Below are positions 603-9,885 of a stretch of 64,000 nt of DNA, in pieces. The notes beneath the pieces were generated by a model. The model was not told the DNA's origin and did no database searches. It saw only the letters and a program-made list of their open reading frames with translations. Origin of the DNA: Podospora anserina (Eukaryota); the NCBI GenBank assembly GCA_017654855.1, contig CM030336.1, positions 2,604,001 through 2,668,000 on the forward strand. The letters run 5' to 3'. The translations under genes and the position numbers were made by a program. Position 1 is the first letter of the stretch. Each line of letters opens with the position of its first letter.

Positions 603-986
603 TGTCACGGCTTAACACTTTGGTGGGGCGCGGGGCGCACTACGGGCCAATCATTAGTACAGGAGCGAGGACCAATTAAAGCAAGATCATTGGGATCGAG
701 GATCGATCCAGAAGAGTTAATCCCAAAAGGGATAGTATCGATAGGATCGATGGTCGAGTCAATTGATCCAGGATAGTGCCAGGCTTGGTACAGGGTCTAT
801 ATATACGGAGGAACTGGCTAGTATAAATAAATAGTTCTATAGTATATAATTTAAGTTTATATTTATAGTATTTAGTATTTATATTAAAATATTTTATTAT
901 ACACTATTTAATTATACCGAATTAATTATTAAAAATTACCTTTAACCAGTATCCCTTTTAAAGGTTCTGTATAGAGGTTCGTTATA
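603..986 (+). repeat. 5' LTR of inner element
   Basis: Starts TGTCACGG and aligns end to end with 7526-7909, differing mainly by C>T/G>A transitions. Confidence 0.92.
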
Positions 987-4000: not shown

Positions 4001-6560
4001 TTAATATTTAAATTACGAAGTTAATTAGTAAGGATATAATACTTTATATACTTAAATATACTTATCGGGTATACTTATATACGAATTAAAAAAAAAAATA
4101 AATAAAAAATAGCGTTTCGTATACCTTATAATTATTTCGAATATCTGGTAATACTATTCGGGCTAATTAATATATTTATAATATTTTAATCTTTTATTAA
4201 TTATATAATCCGGAAGTACTTTAATAAAATAATAATATATTATTTTAATAATATTCTTATTTATTTACGTACTTTAAAGGAATATAAATAATATATACGA
4301 AAAATATTTAACGTACTATACGGAGCTAGACTTTTAATTAATAAAAAAAAATAAGTTTTATATATAAAAAATAATATATTTAAAATATTTAATATTATTA
4401 AATAAAATTCGTATAGAATTTAAGAAAATTACGGTAATTAAAAACTAATTTATATTATAATTATAAATATATATTAAAAAATTTTTAAAGTTTATAAATT
4501 TTTATTAGATATTTATTTAAAAGTATATAAATATTATATAATTATTTAATTATTTAATTAAGAAAGATATAGAGTTCCGGTAGGGGTAGGAAAAGGAGTA
4601 GGCTTTCCGGAAACTAAAAAAAATTATTTTAAAAGACCCGGTATTTAAATTATTAAATCCTAATCGACCGTTCGAGGTTAAGGTAAATATATTAAACTAT
4701 ACGATCGGTAAATAATTAGGATAGCGAAACGATAATAAAAAATTATATTTAATAACCTTTTTTTAAAAAAGTTAAAAAAAATATATTAAAACTATTTAAT
4801 TTATAATAAGAAGTTACTTACTATTATCGAAACGTTTAAAAAATAAAAATTATATTTTAATAATATTAATTACGAAATATAGGTTTATACGGATTATAAA
4901 AATTTATAATATTTTATTATTACGAAAGTCCTTAACGCGCGGTAAACGTAATAATTAAAGTTTCTTTTAGAATTTAATTTTTAAATTAATTATAAAAAGG
5001 GTTCGAAAAACGCTAAAGTAAATATATTTAATAAGCGTACCGATTACTATAAGGATATATTTAAAAAGTTATTATTATTATTTAAAGAAACGTTAAACGG
5101 TATTTTTAAATATTTATTATAGCCGTAAATAAAGTATTATATAGTATATCGCGAGAGGGTTATTTTTAATAAATATTAAAGGAAATTAAATAATAATATT
5201 ATAGAATAATATTAGTAAGAAAAATTAAAGTTATAAAGTATTTAAAAAAATAATTAAGGAAGACTATAATATAAAAATCGAATATATATAAAGTTAGGTA
5301 ATAAAATAGTATTAATAATAAATATTTATAGGTTAAAGTTCGGAGGATATATAAGTATTATAAAGATTATAGAAAAGGTTAAATAATACTTTAATTAATT
5401 AAAAATTAAGAACGACGTTAAGTAAGTTATTTAATTATACTATATATATAAAAAAATAAGGGTTACGAAATATAAACTTTATAGATTTCTGGAACTATTA
5501 TTAATAGTAAAATAATTATAAAGTTTAATTATAATAAATTTTATTATTAAATTATTAAAGTTTAAAAATATAATAACCGGCGTTAAGTATAATAATATAT
5601 TAACGGTAATTAATAAACTTATTAAATAAATATATTTTTTACTATATAAAGAAACTTAGTCGGTAAAGTAATTAATAAATATAGTACTATAGTATATTAT
5701 AGTAATATATATATAGTTAAAAGAATTTATTATAAATCGCGATATTAAATTTATATTAAAATTTTAAAGAGCGTTAATAACGAGGCTAAGGATAGTAAAT
5801 AAAGTATTATCGGTTTATTACCCTTAAACAGATAGTTAAACGGAACGGTTTAATTAAATTATAAAATAGTATTTATAGAATTATATTAATTTTAAATAGG
5901 ACGATTAGGTTAAACTATTATTTACAGTATAATTAATATATAATATATTATTAACGGAAATTATAAAAATTATACTTTTTTCCACGAATTTCGGTTATAA
6001 AATAAATCTATAGTAAGGACTTACGGTTAAAGTACCTAAGGCTAAAGTTAAGGTAAATAAAATATATATACTTTACGGTAAATTTAAATAAAAACTAGAG
6101 TTTATAAACGAAAGGATATAAAAATATTATAATACTAAAAGGCTTAAGGGACTTTATTTTAAGAGGAAAGATATAATATTCCTTTCTATATATAACTTAT
6201 ATATTAAAAAACCTAGTAAAAAACTAAACTATAAAAAAGTAAGCCCGTTTAAGGTTAAAAAGAAAATATTAAAGATAGTATTTAAACTAAAGTTACTTAG
6301 TATAATATATTTACAGTTATATATTTTTTATATTTTATTTCTAGAACCCGTATTATTAATGAATAAAGTTAATATATAAATAATAGCGGAAAACGAAAAA
6401 GAAAAGTATAATATAAAAAAAATATTAGATTTATAGTTTAATCAAAATTAATTAAAATATTTAATTATAAATAATTTATAGGAACTAAAAGTATATTTTA
6501 ATTATTTAAATAAATAAAAAGTATTTTATTAATAATACCCGGACTAATTAAAACCTAAAT
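1044..6560 (+). pseudogene. RIP-degraded gag-pol (gag zinc knuckle, RT, RNase H, integrase, chromodomain relics)
   Basis: Gag-like KFPAPERY..KLKGFL at ~1240-1300, RIPed CCHC knuckle at ~1955-2000, RIPed YxDD-type motif (tat ttt aat aat att ctt att) at ~4240, many RIP-generated stops. Ends approximate. Confidence 0.75.
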
Positions 6561-6616
6561 AATAAAAAAATCTATACTTAAACTATAAAAAAATATTTAT
6601 AAATTTAAATATAAAA

Positions 6617-6687
6617 GAACCTCGGTAAAAATCGAACTTATACCTTTAACGTAATAACTAATATACTATATATTATACTATAAAATT
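6617..6687 (-). ncRNA. tRNA-like Pol III unit embedded in retrotransposon (RIPed)
   Basis: The minus strand shows an A-box-like TAGTATAAT, B-box GTTCGATT, 3' acceptor strand CGAGGTT, and then C-TTTT. Confidence 0.6.
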
Positions 6688-6729
6688 AAAAAATATAAAG
6701 GGGATTAAATATAAATAGTATTACGCGCT

Positions 6730-7400
6730 TTAACTACCCTAGGAAAGGAAAGGCGCGCCGACGGTAGTATCTTAGGCGGCTAAAAAGGAAGGACCGACCA
6801 CGCCCGGATCCAGAGAGAAGTTAGGTAACTAGTCGAAGCCTAAGGCAGGACTTAGGAAAGAAAAGTTAGAAAGTAGGGTATTAGAAGACTCTACCGTAGG
6901 ACAGTCCCGGGGATCTAGGGAGGCGGGGGCCGGAGGAGGAGGAGGAGCGTTACTAGGCGGCGAGACAGACTATACGGCCAGCGTAACTTCCTCCTACTTA
7001 ATACGCTCCAGCTTTTTTACACTATTAAAACCACGGGAGACGGCCGTAGCTATCTATTTAAACCATATTCGTTTCTATAAGCGTAGGCGGTTAATTTTCT
7101 AATCTAAAGCCACGTATTAGGACTCGGCCTTTACTATCTCCGTCTTTAATTAATTATATTAAAAAATAACTTTACGGAGCTATTAAATAAATAATTTACG
7201 AGTATCGTAAAGGAATTAATTATATTATATATAAAAAGTATAACGATTAAAGACGGAAGGGGAAATTTTATAAAAAAAATTATATTTCTTATAAAAAAAA
7301 TAAATATACTTTATAATAATAGTAAACCGTAAAATAATAATAAATAATTCGTTACGATCCGCGGTTTTCGAATATAAAAGTTTAATACCGGGTCGTACTT
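6730..7400 (-). pseudogene. Antisense accessory gene of LTR element: Zn2Cys6-like + coiled-coil protein (RIPed)
   Basis: TAT/TAC codons (RIPed TGT/TGC) are spaced C-x2-C-x6-C-x9-C-x2-C-x7-C at 7302-7207. An apparent intron follows, then KINRLRL.KRIWF..IATAVSRGF..V..LER. Confidence 0.65.
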
Positions 7401-7525
7401 TACTTACGTAATTAAATATAATAAAATATAATAAATAAAGGAAAAAAGAGAGAATTTATAAACGTTAGTAAACGTAAAAGAATAGGCTAGGCCGACGGAA
7501 CTTCGGCCTAAAAGGAAGAGTATTA

Positions 7526-7909
7526 TATTATAGCTTAATATTTTAATAAGGCGCGGAGTATACTACGGGCTAATTATTAGTATAGGAGCGAGGATTAATT
7601 AAAGTAAGATTATTAGGATCGAGGATCGATTTAAAAAAGTTAATCCCAAAAGGAATAGTATCGATAGGATCGATAATCGAGTTAATCGATCCAGGACAGT
7701 ACTAGGCTTAGTATAGGGTTTATATATACGGAGGAACTAGCTAATATAGATAAATAGTTCCGTAATATATAATTTAAGTTTATATTTACGGTATTTAGTA
7801 TTTATATTGAGATATCTTATTATATACTATTTAGCTGCACCGAACCAATTGTCAGAAGTTACCTTTAACCAATATCCCTTTTAGAGGTTCTGTACAGAGG
7901 TTCGTTACA
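7526..7909 (+). repeat. 3' LTR of inner element
   Basis: Direct repeat of 603-986, ends GTTACA, followed by the TSD. Confidence 0.92.
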
Positions 7910-8196
7910 ATATTTTACTTTTAGAACCTATATTATTAATAAGTAAGGTTAATATATAGGTAATAGCGAAGGACGATAAAGAAGAGTATAATATAGAAAA
8001 GATATTAGATTTACGGTTTAATAAAAATTAATTAAAATATTTAATTATAAATAATTCGTAAGAACTAAAAGTAAACCTTAATTACCCGGATAAATAAAAA
8101 GAATTTTACCGGTAATACCTAAACTAATTAAAATCCAGGTAAATAAAAGATTAGTACTTAGGATTACGGATAATACTTATAAACTTAAATACTAAA

Positions 8197-8266
8197 AAAC
8201 TTTAATAAAAATCGAACTTACGCTTTTAATATAATAATTAACGTACTATATTTATACTATAAAATT
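8197..8266 (-). ncRNA. tRNA-like unit in host element (heavily RIPed)
   Basis: Homologous to 6617-6687; GTTCGATT B-box retained, followed by a T-run. Confidence 0.5.
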
Positions 8267-8308
8267 AATAAATATAAAGGAATCCGGACGTAAATAGTAT
8301 TATAAACG

Positions 8309-8990
8309 TTAATTACTTTAGGAAATAAAAACATTTTTGCCGGAAAAATCTTAAGCGGTTAGGGATAATAAAGGATTAGAGGGAAATTAGGGATTTAAAA
8401 ATAAAACGTTAGTTGGAGCGGCGATACCGAAGTTAGAATACGGTTAGTTAAATAAAATAGAAGGCTAGTTAGAGGGGCCGGTATTAAGGGTAATAATTAG
8501 AGGAAGGTCGAGCGTAGGCGTAACCTCGCTAATAACGGTGGTACTCCGTTTCGATAAATATTATTTTTATTAATAAAAACGAAATAAATAAATAATAGTT
8601 TTTTACGCTTTATAAGTAATCTTTTTAATTTTATAATAGGTATTTAAAAGTCGCTATTCGGCGGTTAATTTTTTTAAAGTTAAATAACGGTATTCGGTAA
8701 TTAACCGCTCCACTAAACGGGGTTAGTCGGAATATTAATAAAAAGGTAAATAAATTAATTTATAATAATAAAAATATCCGACGCGTTATAGGTCCGGGCC
8801 TAACGTATATATTTACTATAACGAAAAGAATATTTATATAAACGATAAATTAAATTATAAGTAATATAAAAAAAATAAAGTATAATAATAAAACCTTTAA
8901 AATCGATAAAGGTAATTAAAGTTGAACGGCGACGGTACTATTAATTAACGTTCGGAGTAAAAATCTATAAGGACTTAAAAACTTTAAAAA
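8309..8990 (-). pseudogene. Antisense Zn2Cys6-like accessory gene of host element (RIPed)
   Basis: TAT codons spaced C-x2-C-x6-C-x8-C-x2-C-x6-C at 8877-8788 (de-RIPs to ..SSRCSECVR.ARTCD). Confidence 0.65.
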
Positions 8991-9119
8991 GATTAAATAT
9001 AATAAACGTTAGTAAGAGAGAGGGGAAAAAGGGAGTACTTACTTTAAGAATAATAAAGAGAAAAGATACAGTAAAAGAGGATTTAGTTGCCGAGACGTCG
9101 GCCTAGAGGAGGGGTATCG

Positions 9120-9523
9120 TATTATAACCTTAATATCGGAAACGGTAGAATAGTATAAAGTTATTAGCTAATTAGAATAAGGTTGCGGCGGTCTGGGCAA
9201 TTATAAGTAATAAGATTAGGAAGTATAATAATTACGGAAATATAATTAATAAGGAACTAAAGAAGGATTATAGCGATTATTATAATTATTAGGGAAGAGC
9301 GGAATGACTATTATAATCGGGAAGAATTAAGGTCTATATATACGGAGGAACTGGTTGGTATAACTAGACAGTTCCGTAGTATATAATTTACAATTGTATT
9401 TACAGTATCTTATATTTATCTTGAGACATCTTATTGTGCACTGTTTAGCTGCACCGAACCAATTGTCAGAAGTTACCTTTAACCCGTATCCCTTTCAGAG
9501 GTTCTGTACAGGGGTTCGTCACA
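9120..9523 (+). repeat. 3' LTR of host element
   Basis: The 3' half (from GGTCTATATATACGGAGGAACTGG to GTCACA) closely matches the inner LTRs; the 5' half differs. Confidence 0.85.
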
Positions 9524-9885
9524 GGTAGCGTAATCTACGATTATAATACTGCCCGATTCTTTACCGGATACCTCTACGTAGCCAGACGCCGGCTGGGACA
9601 CCGTTTTGTGGGCTCCTTATGCCTCGGACCCCTCTTTAAGCCTCGACTAGCCTTCCGACCTTTCTCTAGGCCTTGATTAGCCTTCTGGCCTTTCCTTTAA
9701 CCATAGTGCGGCCGGTCCTTTTTTCTTAACCGGTTAAAGTATCGCTAACGGAGCTTTACCGACCACTTAGGGAAATTAACGTATAGTATTAGTTATATAT
9801 CGCCCCCTAGGTATTTCTTAACCTTATAGTGTAGTGTGTAATACGGTGGCTGTTACGTCGGAAGCGCGGGTTCGATTCACCCGCG
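9524..9885 (-). mobile_element. Inverted internal remnant of a third related LTR element
   Basis: Reverse-complement homology to ~6630-6850: C-terminus of the accessory ORF plus the tRNA-like unit. Confidence 0.7.
9820..9884 (+). ncRNA. tRNA-like unit, least RIPed copy (3' acceptor strand missing)
   Basis: AACCTTA-TAGTGTAGTGTG..GGTGGCTGTTACGTCGG..GCGGGTTCGATTC: A-box and B-box at tRNA spacing. Confidence 0.6.

What the first reader, a model, noticed from the sequence alone, without database searches (positions are those of the whole stretch)
6613..9884. Ty3 retrotransposons carry their own antisense tRNA-like Pol III unit
Seen: all three related elements (6617-6687 -, 8197-8266 -, 9820-9884 +) have a ~70-nt segment starting 41-43 nt after the stop of the antisense accessory ORF. 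De-RIPing across the copies gives approximately AACCTCG-TAGTGTA..GCAC-G-TTGGC-TGTYAC-GTCAA-..-GYGAG-TTCGATT-CTCRC-CGAGGTT-C-TTTT. That is an acceptor stem, A-box, B-box/T-arm and oligo-T terminator, but with a 6-nt anticodon loop resembling the LTR terminus TGTCAC. Inference: a captured tRNA-derived gene kept at a fixed position across subfamilies, possibly a TFIIIC insulator against heterochromatin, a regulatory small RNA, or a terminator barrier between convergent pol and accessory transcripts.
Basis: partly seen in the sequence, partly recalled or inferred. Interest (0 to 1): 0.72.

Follow-up and report, generated by a model that had tools for sequence, protein, structure and literature searches.

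The report
Retrotransposon tRNA-hairpin guides against host defences
A fungal jumping gene carries a tRNA-shaped promoter followed by a short RNA hairpin whose first 20 letters match, in antisense, the host's own genes for heterochromatin silencing and for an Mx-like antiviral protein, so it looks like a transposon-borne microRNA cassette aimed at host defences, although its expression is not yet shown.

Summary
The tRNA-like unit is real. Less-mutated copies elsewhere in the genome pass Rfam's tRNA cut-off (up to 54 bits). I collected 60 units, all inside a crapaud-like Ty3 family. Its stems are under selection independent of RIP: shared transversions in 3/42 stem columns vs 15/43 linker columns, singletons equal.

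Instead a 17-20 bp hairpin of variable sequence and then T4-9 follow, as in herpesvirus TMERs.

The 20 nt starting at the predicted tRNase Z cut are antisense to host defence genes. One type matches the Raf1/DIM-9 (H3K9 methylation) orthologue 20/20 (chance 6.5e-5 genome-wide). Two other types hit one Mx-like GTPase gene at two separate sites, the second found blind.

Best reading: a Pol III tRNA-microRNA counter-defence cassette with swappable guides. Expression, processing and silencing are untested. Nineteen of 59 arms have no assigned target, and 3 of 29 same-family copies lack the unit. Three earlier scan notes saw the tRNA-like unit on other pieces of this genome; two called it a relic, one found no shown function, and none (as shown to me) mentions hairpins or targets.

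The parts
6617..6687 (-). tRNA-like head, copy 1 (heavily RIP-mutated)
   Evidence: family covariance model 63.5 bits
6572..6615 (-). trailer hairpin of copy 1; its 5' arm (6597-6616) belongs to the class that matches site A of the host Mx-like gene
   Evidence: z -4.8; one transversion, other differences RIP-compatible
6564..6570 (-). oligo-T run after the hairpin, copy 1 (length inflated by RIP)
6688..6732 (-). accessory ORF stop (6730-6732) and 42-nt linker, copy 1
   Evidence: accessory 3' end homology at 6732-6850
8197..8266 (-). tRNA-like head, copy 2 (1-nt D-loop deletion)
   Evidence: RF00005 24.2 bits; family model 54.2 bits
8152..8195 (-). trailer hairpin of copy 2 (site-A class, two transversions against the host site), T4 at 8145-8148
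   Evidence: z -3.2
8267..8311 (-). linker and accessory stop (8309-8311), copy 2
9820..9878 (+). tRNA-like head, copy 3, truncated at the junction with non-element DNA; no hairpin or terminator
9777..9819 (+). accessory stop and 40-nt linker, copy 3
603..986 (+). 5' LTR of the inner element that carries copy 1 (RIP-mutated)
7533..7909 (+). 3' LTR of the inner element (start approximate)
9328..9523 (+). conserved half of the LTR next to copies 2 and 3

Best explanation
One branch of a crapaud-like Ty3 chromovirus gained a tRNA-microRNA cassette on its antisense strand, between the accessory ORF and the pol end. INFERRED steps: Pol III starts at the tRNA-like head (internal A/B boxes), reads through a 17-20 bp hairpin and stops at the oligo-T. 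tRNase Z cuts after the discriminator and frees the hairpin with a 5' U. Dicer and/or an Argonaute loads the 5' arm as a guide of about 20 nt. The guide silences host mRNAs for Raf1/DIM-9 (needed for H3K9 methylation and, through it, DNA methylation) and for an Mx-like GTPase (MxF), easing repression of the element. Subfamilies exchange the payload but keep the head, and two-unit elements can carry guides to both genes (L014, L015, L022, L023, L076) or to two sites of one gene (L018, L024). SHOWN here: anatomy, selection on structure, strand, and guide-target complementarity beginning at the predicted cut.
For: Head under selection, RIP-blind: shared transversions in 3/42 stem columns vs 15/43 linker columns (p=0.003), while singletons are 8/42 vs 6/43 (p=0.57). 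Two of the three stem columns are one compensated pair. The 7 least-mutated heads have 25 G-U and 0 A-C among 147 pairs, although RIP is strand-symmetric in the linker (0.66/0.65).

Hairpin: z<-2 in 39/60 downstream vs 1/60 upstream windows. It is kept across 19 purine/pyrimidine arm classes, some of them only indel-shifted versions of each other, and T>=4 lies within 10 nt of the stem end in 55/59. Host tRNA genes also use T4 as first run (13 of the 17 with a run, of 23). L014 hairpins have z -7.2 and -6.2 and are stronger on the tRNA strand.

Target 1: L014/L015 unit-2 positions +1..+20 equal G000:C4:2431018-2431037 20/20, antisense to a 972-aa WD40 ORF; expectation 6.5e-5. Best PDB hit is S. 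pombe Raf1 (8e-17, next 3e-6), and homologues are named Rik1-associated factor 1. The passenger arm differs from the host at 4-5 of 18 positions, the guide at 0 of 20.

Target 2: the commonest arms vary synonymously in one antisense frame. Back-translation gave 1 host hit (control 0), in a dynamin-family gene whose best PDB hits are Mx1/Mx2. Blind check: an unrelated arm type (L024, L018) matches the same gene 507 nt away with no transversion, score 18.4 vs control maximum 14.3 in 132 kb; chance about 8e-5 per type.

Controls: 15/52 distinct guides score >=15 antisense and 0/52 sense; six other segment classes give 0 antisense; shuffles give 28/2080. The same biogenesis route exists in Neurospora (milR-4, PMC3547838) and MHV68 (PMC4337559).
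Against: No expression, processing or silencing data. Almost all site-A arms mismatch the present host at guide position 10 (L014 unit 1: 17/20), and 4 of 6 Raf1 arms mismatch at position 13. The site-A search alone had about 0.27 expected chance hits, and two of the three sites were found using the guides, so only site F is blind. 19 of 59 arms have no assigned target; type H had no antisense coding hit, and one sublineage lost the hairpin. Many class assignments (score 12-15) are within control noise and rest on kinship. The genome could not be scanned whole. The guide is also perfectly complementary to the element's own genomic RNA. A 17-20 bp stem is short for Dicer (own knowledge). The D-loop GG is split. 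The cassette is dispensable: absent in 3/29 family copies and 9/9 informative relatives. DIM-9 orthology rests on best hits (its accession was not seen), and fungal MxF proteins are uncharacterised (PMC11789081).
Confidence: 0.72

Rival explanations
1. The cassette acts in cis. The tRNA-like fold is an RNase P/tRNase Z end-processing signal (mascRNA-like; recalled) or a Pol III roadblock/insulator that ends the antisense accessory transcript, and the hairpin plus T-run is a terminator. The host matches only record where reverse transcriptase captured the arm sequence.
For: Fixed position 40-43 nt after the accessory stop on the same strand. Relatives without the unit have overlapping accessory and pol ends. 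Pol III occupancy limits antisense read-through in BLV (PMC4855707 passages). One sublineage kept a compensated head but lost the hairpin.
Against: Does not explain three independent arm types matching two defence-type genes, always antisense and in register with the cut (offset 0 in 35 of 40 assigned arms), nor a guide that stays identical while the passenger drifts. A second tandem unit adds little as a terminator.
Confidence: 0.13
2. The Pol III transcript works as a structure-only decoy that ties up Dicer/Argonaute (adenovirus VA RNA-like; recalled) or as a self-limiting small RNA against the element's own genomic RNA.
For: Hairpin structure is kept while its sequence varies widely. Any guide is fully complementary to the genomic RNA. 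In MHV68 the tRNA part alone has activity (PMC4337559 abstract).
Against: Arm variation tracks a host reading frame and host sites. Self-targeting needs no host match.
Confidence: 0.08
3. Inert relic: a tRNA or SINE head hitch-hiked once; the hairpins come from template switching and the host matches are chance.
For: Single gain, dispensable; all window copies are dead; no clear host tRNA donor.
Against: Transversion deficit limited to shared changes. One-strand G-U bias, which template copying would not make. Exact 20-mer at expectation 6.5e-5 plus a blind second site. All 7 matches within 1 mismatch of a head motif lie in the element, with no free-standing SINE seen.
Confidence: 0.05

Closest known systems
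MHV68 TMERs, tRNA-miRNA-encoded RNAs (PMC4337559 passages; PMC3482243 passages)
   Same: Non-decoding tRNA-like head directly followed by a hairpin and oligo-T, several units per genome, distinct payloads behind similar heads, tRNase Z route.
   Different: DNA herpesvirus of mice, experimentally shown. Here a fungal LTR retrotransposon, antisense to pol, one shorter hairpin per head, near-perfect (not seed-only) matches to host coding sequence, prediction only.
Drosophila TART-A capture of nxf2 (PMC7785250, abstract only)
   Same: A retrotransposon holds host defence-gene sequence and is proposed to repress that gene by antisense small RNA.
   Different: Non-LTR element, long captured piece fed into the host piRNA pathway. 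Here 20-nt guides in a dedicated promoter-hairpin-terminator cassette, two target genes, three sites.
Neurospora milR-4 (PMC3547838 passages and Discussion)
   Same: Pol III tRNA precursor cut by RNase Z to give a microRNA-like RNA in a related fungus, so the host pathway exists.
   Different: Host locus with real tRNA-Ala genes, not mobile.
BLV Pol III microRNA cluster (PMC4855707 passages)
   Same: Internal Pol III hairpin genes in an LTR retroelement, facing an antisense transcript from the 3' LTR.
   Different: BLV miRNAs lie on the positive strand of an animal retrovirus; that they have no cloverleaf head is recalled.
Helenus/Cassandra TRIMp3 (PMC10886601, parts 1-4 of 6 read)
   Same: Small-RNA-gene-derived Pol III promoter inside an LTR element, including fungi.
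   Different: Sits in the LTRs of tiny non-autonomous elements and is read as a promoter only. Here it is internal, structure-conserved and followed by a guide hairpin.
crapaud of Podospora (PMC10787394 passages, part 2 of 8, supplement search)
   Same: Ty3 with chromodomain; LTR with one conserved and one variable half.
   Different: The paper shows two ORFs and has 0 hits for 'tRNA', 'zinc' or 'antisense'. Identity with the library sequence could not be checked.

Membership tests
functional tRNA gene | cloverleaf above the RF00005 cut-off | tested here: met
   43-54 bits in less-mutated copies; window copies fall below
functional tRNA gene | 7-nt anticodon loop with a conserved anticodon | tested here: not met
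   6 nt in most units, 7 nt with other sequence in 3; 18 loop variants
functional tRNA gene | clear host isotype of origin | tested here: inconclusive
   23 host tRNA loci compared; best model scores Gln/Glu/Gly 40-47 bits, identity at most 48/72 for intronless genes; only 63 of 1361 candidates were scored
TMER-type tRNA-miRNA gene | tRNA-like head, then hairpin, then oligo-T | tested here: met
TMER-type tRNA-miRNA gene | Pol III transcription and tRNase Z/Dicer processing | not testable with these tools
   needs small-RNA data, ChIP or knock-downs
TMER-type tRNA-miRNA gene | encoded by a gammaherpesvirus | tested here: not met
   Ty3 element with chromodomain and LTRs with TSD; works like a TMER but is not a member
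fungal milRNA | guide from one hairpin arm with 5' U | tested here: met
   predicted only: 58 of 59 arms begin with T at +1
fungal milRNA | strand-specific small-RNA reads and Argonaute loading | not testable with these tools
Helenus/TRIMp3 | tRNA-derived sequence inside the LTRs of a non-coding element of about 0.3-1.3 kb | tested here: not met
   unit is internal, about 850 nt from the 3' LTR, in a 5.4-kb gag/integrase-bearing element
SINE | free-standing dispersed copies | tested here: not met
   60/60 units have the element's linker upstream; 7/7 motif hits within 1 mismatch lie in the element; RIP-erased copies could be missed
primer tRNA of the element | 3' end complementary to the PBS | tested here: not met
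   PBS pairs 9 nt with the LTR R region (Tf1-type self-priming; name recalled), at most 5 nt with the unit
crapaud | conserved LTR half plus variable half, chromodomain | tested here: met
crapaud | sequence identity to the published family | not testable with these tools
   LTR-end motifs not found in the two supplement files held as text

The most novel reading that the evidence does not exclude
This is a programmable, transposon-encoded microRNA platform: a constant tRNA-like Pol III head with exchangeable, host-derived 20-nt guides that knock down heterochromatin (Raf1/DIM-9) and an Mx-like GTPase. The diversity of guides would record an arms race, including host synonymous escape at the slicing position, and would name fungal MxF as an anti-retrotransposon factor. 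The unassigned arms would point to further defence genes.
Probability: 0.55. Interest if true: 0.95.

Novelty: new variant of a known kind. Interest (0 to 1): 0.88.

Why it matters
Transposon counter-defence by small RNA has few cases (TART-A/nxf2). I found none for a fungal element or for a dedicated Pol III cassette (searches; the library lacks most subscription journals). If expressed, this shows a retrotransposon attacking the H3K9 methylation machinery in a RIP-competent fungus. It would give the first functional pointer for the uncharacterised fungal MxF proteins, and the guide repertoire becomes a way to read off which host genes restrict retrotransposons. Every step is directly testable in a laboratory model fungus.

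Tried and rejected
Expression: no RNA holder listed. Contigs of four DNA or unlabelled runs coded as organisms B-E cover the unit region, which shows presence only.

Relatives: viral contigs and genome contigs gave none. Of 13 metagenome loci, 9 span the accessory-pol junction and none has the unit.

Rejected on the sequence: primer role, LTR-like loop and adjacent terminator, structured upstream linker.

Target searches that failed or were weak:
- L014 unit-1 arm as a plain pattern: 7 hits vs 5 control, nothing better than 3 mismatches outside itself.
- Second-best hit of the Raf1-type arm (L111, 2 mismatches, antisense to an ORF without Pfam match): within chance, not pursued.
- Type H arm: 3 host hits vs 1 control, none antisense to a long ORF.
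- Type K pattern: only element copies; it is pol-tail sequence after hairpin loss.
- Weak antisense matches of L010/L042/L009 arms to a second dynamin-family gene L121 (scores 14.3-15.6): not significant after about 50 arms.

Dropped rows: the truncated window copy was left out or masked downstream of head position 58; L084 (interrupted) was not counted among the 29. In the tree, L079 and L084 were left out, L047 gave no hit, and L075 and L081 have long branches from truncation. The tree is neighbour-joining without support values. Scripts returned nothing and were rerun lighter. Covariation counts are mostly transitions that RIP can mimic, so I gave them little weight.
Full report
OBSERVATION. 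The first 10 kb of the window is a nest of RIP-mutated Ty3 elements. The three segments align and lie 42, 42 and 40 nt behind the accessory stop. In the window they are too damaged for ARAGORN and reach only 24.2 bits in Rfam. Genome searches gave less-mutated copies that pass the RF00005 cut-off at 43-54 bits. A profile search of the fetched loci gave 60 distinct units, a lower bound; 15 elements have two in tandem.

ELEMENT. L109 holds a whole young copy with identical 372-bp LTRs, a 5-bp TSD, gag, an internal deletion and an integrase-chromodomain end. The LTR has a conserved and a variable half, as described for crapaud (PMC10787394: passages, part 2 of 8 and a supplement search; it has 0 hits for tRNA, zinc or antisense). 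The PBS pairs with the element's own R region, not with the unit.

DISTRIBUTION. The unit is absent from 9 of 9 informative metagenome relatives among 13 loci. Among 30 pol-selected copies in this genome it is present in 26, absent in 3, and 1 is interrupted. The three unit-less copies branch outside the unit-bearing group in a purine/pyrimidine neighbour-joining tree without support values. Contigs of four runs coded as other organisms cover the region.

SELECTION ON THE HEAD. RIP makes only transitions, so I counted transversions. Changes shared by two or more copies fall in 3 of 42 stem columns against 15 of 43 linker columns (p=0.003). Singletons, which reflect decay after insertion, do not differ (8/42 vs 6/43). 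Two of the three stem columns form one compensated pair. Diversity is 0.013 in stems, 0.005 in the T-loop, 0.059 in the anticodon loop and 0.069 in the linker. The seven least-mutated heads have 25 G-U and no A-C pairs, while RIP hits both strands equally; these heads were partly picked for high scores and are related. So an RNA on the antisense strand was selected for shape, not for decoding. This contradicts the relic reading in e1-7124041 and e1-7124851.

HAIRPIN AND TERMINATOR. Starting 1-3 nt after the discriminator there is a 17-20 bp hairpin. It has z<-2 in 39 of 60 copies against 1 of 60 for the upstream window, and z -7.2 and -6.2 in the two L014 units, more stable on the tRNA strand. 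Arms fall into 19 purine/pyrimidine classes, some only indel-shifted. A run of at least 4 T lies within 10 nt of the stem end in 55 of 59; T4 is also the usual first run behind host tRNA genes. Head, hairpin and oligo-T is the layout of MHV68 TMERs (PMC4337559, PMC3482243; passages). Neurospora makes milR-4 by the same RNase Z route (PMC3547838; passages and Discussion).

TARGET 1, RAF1/DIM-9. I ran five guide searches; two gave notable host hits. The first 20 nt after the discriminator of L014 and L015 unit 2 are identical to G000:C4:2431018-2431037, antisense to a 972-aa WD40 ORF; an exact 20-mer is expected 6.5e-5 times. The protein's best PDB match is fission-yeast Raf1, and many homologues are named Rik1-associated factor 1. 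The Neurospora crassa homologue is 1229 aa and 70% identical, compatible with DIM-9, the WD40 subunit of DCDC required for H3K9 and DNA methylation (PMC2973830 passages); its accession was not seen. The guide has no difference from the host while the passenger has 4-5 of 18, mostly G-U-forming. Four further copies fit this site with one transversion at position 13.

TARGET 2, MX-LIKE GTPASE. The commonest arms differ from one another by changes that are synonymous in one antisense frame. The back-translated motif hit one host place (control 0, about 0.27 expected), in a 917-aa dynamin-family frame whose best PDB matches are Mx1 and Mx2 ahead of Vps1. It is thus like the uncharacterised fungal MxF proteins (PMC11789081 passages). 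Scanning all arms against the eight dynamin-family loci then showed, blind, that an unrelated arm type matches the same gene 507 nt upstream with no transversion. It scores 18.4 and 17.3 against control maxima of 14.3 and 14.8, with chance about 8e-5 per type.

TALLY AND CONTROLS. By a loose rule, 40 of 59 arms are assigned (31 site A, 6 Raf1, 3 site F) and 19 are not. Both intact window copies are site-A class. Against the two coding sequences, 15 of 52 distinct guides score at least 15 antisense and none sense; other segments of the same units give none antisense; shuffles give 28 of 2080; unrelated host blocks give 0-2. Two of the three sites were chosen with the guides, so that control is partly circular.

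AGAINST. There are no expression data. Site-A guides nearly all mismatch at position 10. Types H and K have no target. The guide also matches the element's own RNA. The stem is short for Dicer (own knowledge). The cassette is dispensable. The genome could be probed only by capped searches, so other equally good targets are not excluded.

MECHANISM. Most likely (0.72) a Pol III tRNA-microRNA cassette that lowers host H3K9-methylation and MxF mRNAs. Shown: anatomy, selection, strand, complementarity in register with the predicted cut. Inferred: transcription, tRNase Z cut, Argonaute loading, silencing, benefit to the element. Rivals: cis processing or barrier signal (0.13; BLV precedent, PMC4855707 passages), decoy or self-limiting RNA (0.08), relic (0.05).

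COMPARISON AND NOVELTY. It works like a TMER in build and like TART-A/nxf2 (PMC7785250, abstract) in logic, but is a member of neither. It is not a tRNA gene, Helenus (PMC10886601, parts 1-4 of 6), SINE or primer. Searches (listings), plus passages of a fungal hairpin-RNA survey (PMC9757828) and a crapaud centromere preprint (10.64898/2025.12.02.690432, whose supplements are closed), showed no description of such a cassette in a transposon; the library lacks most subscription journals. The scan's own notes had the tRNA-like unit, but none shown to me mentions the hairpin or the targets. Verdict: real, selected, a new variant of the tRNA-microRNA kind in a new setting, with specific and testable host targets. 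Interest 0.88.

Noticed in passing
L014 913-1602; L002 1062-1701: The antisense accessory ORF (intron, Zn-cluster-like, PF00172 below cut-off) has 75-84% relatives in Thermothelomyces, Chaetomium and metagenomes, multi-copy in T. thermophilus, yet L002's first exon is only 37% like L014's. The 5' part seems to be swapped together with the variable LTR half.
   Followed up: partly
L014 1833-3253 (-); L002 1713-1970 (-): The pol frame stays open through the antisense of the last hairpin and tRNA head and stops only in the linker.
   Followed up: partly
L043, L046, L049, L058, L066, L080: In unit-less elements the accessory 3' end overlaps the chromodomain end of pol. In unit-bearing ones this overlap appears duplicated, with the cassette between the two copies.
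   Followed up: partly
L109 428-5848: Young insertion (identical 372-bp LTRs, 5-bp TSD) that lacks protease and reverse transcriptase but keeps both cassettes; the PBS is complementary to its own R region.
   Followed up: partly
L071 2041, L073 2053, L077 1354: Sublineage with a compensated transversion pair in the acceptor stem but no trailer hairpin in unit 2.
   Followed up: partly
L121 1738-1757 and 1963-1982: A second dynamin-family gene with weak antisense matches to two unassigned arm types; not significant.
   Followed up: partly
L110 about 6430-6730: An LTR fragment of this same family lies about 1.2 kb upstream of the Raf1/DIM-9-like ORF (recognised by its translated LTR sequence).
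   Followed up: no
window 18505-20370: A 49-nt terminal inverted repeat pair (98%) around an AT-rich 1.8-kb stretch: a RIP-mutated DNA transposon.
   Followed up: no
L021 1516-1579, L077 1361-1424: The same 7-nt D-arm deletion occurs in two unrelated units, between short direct repeats.
   Followed up: no
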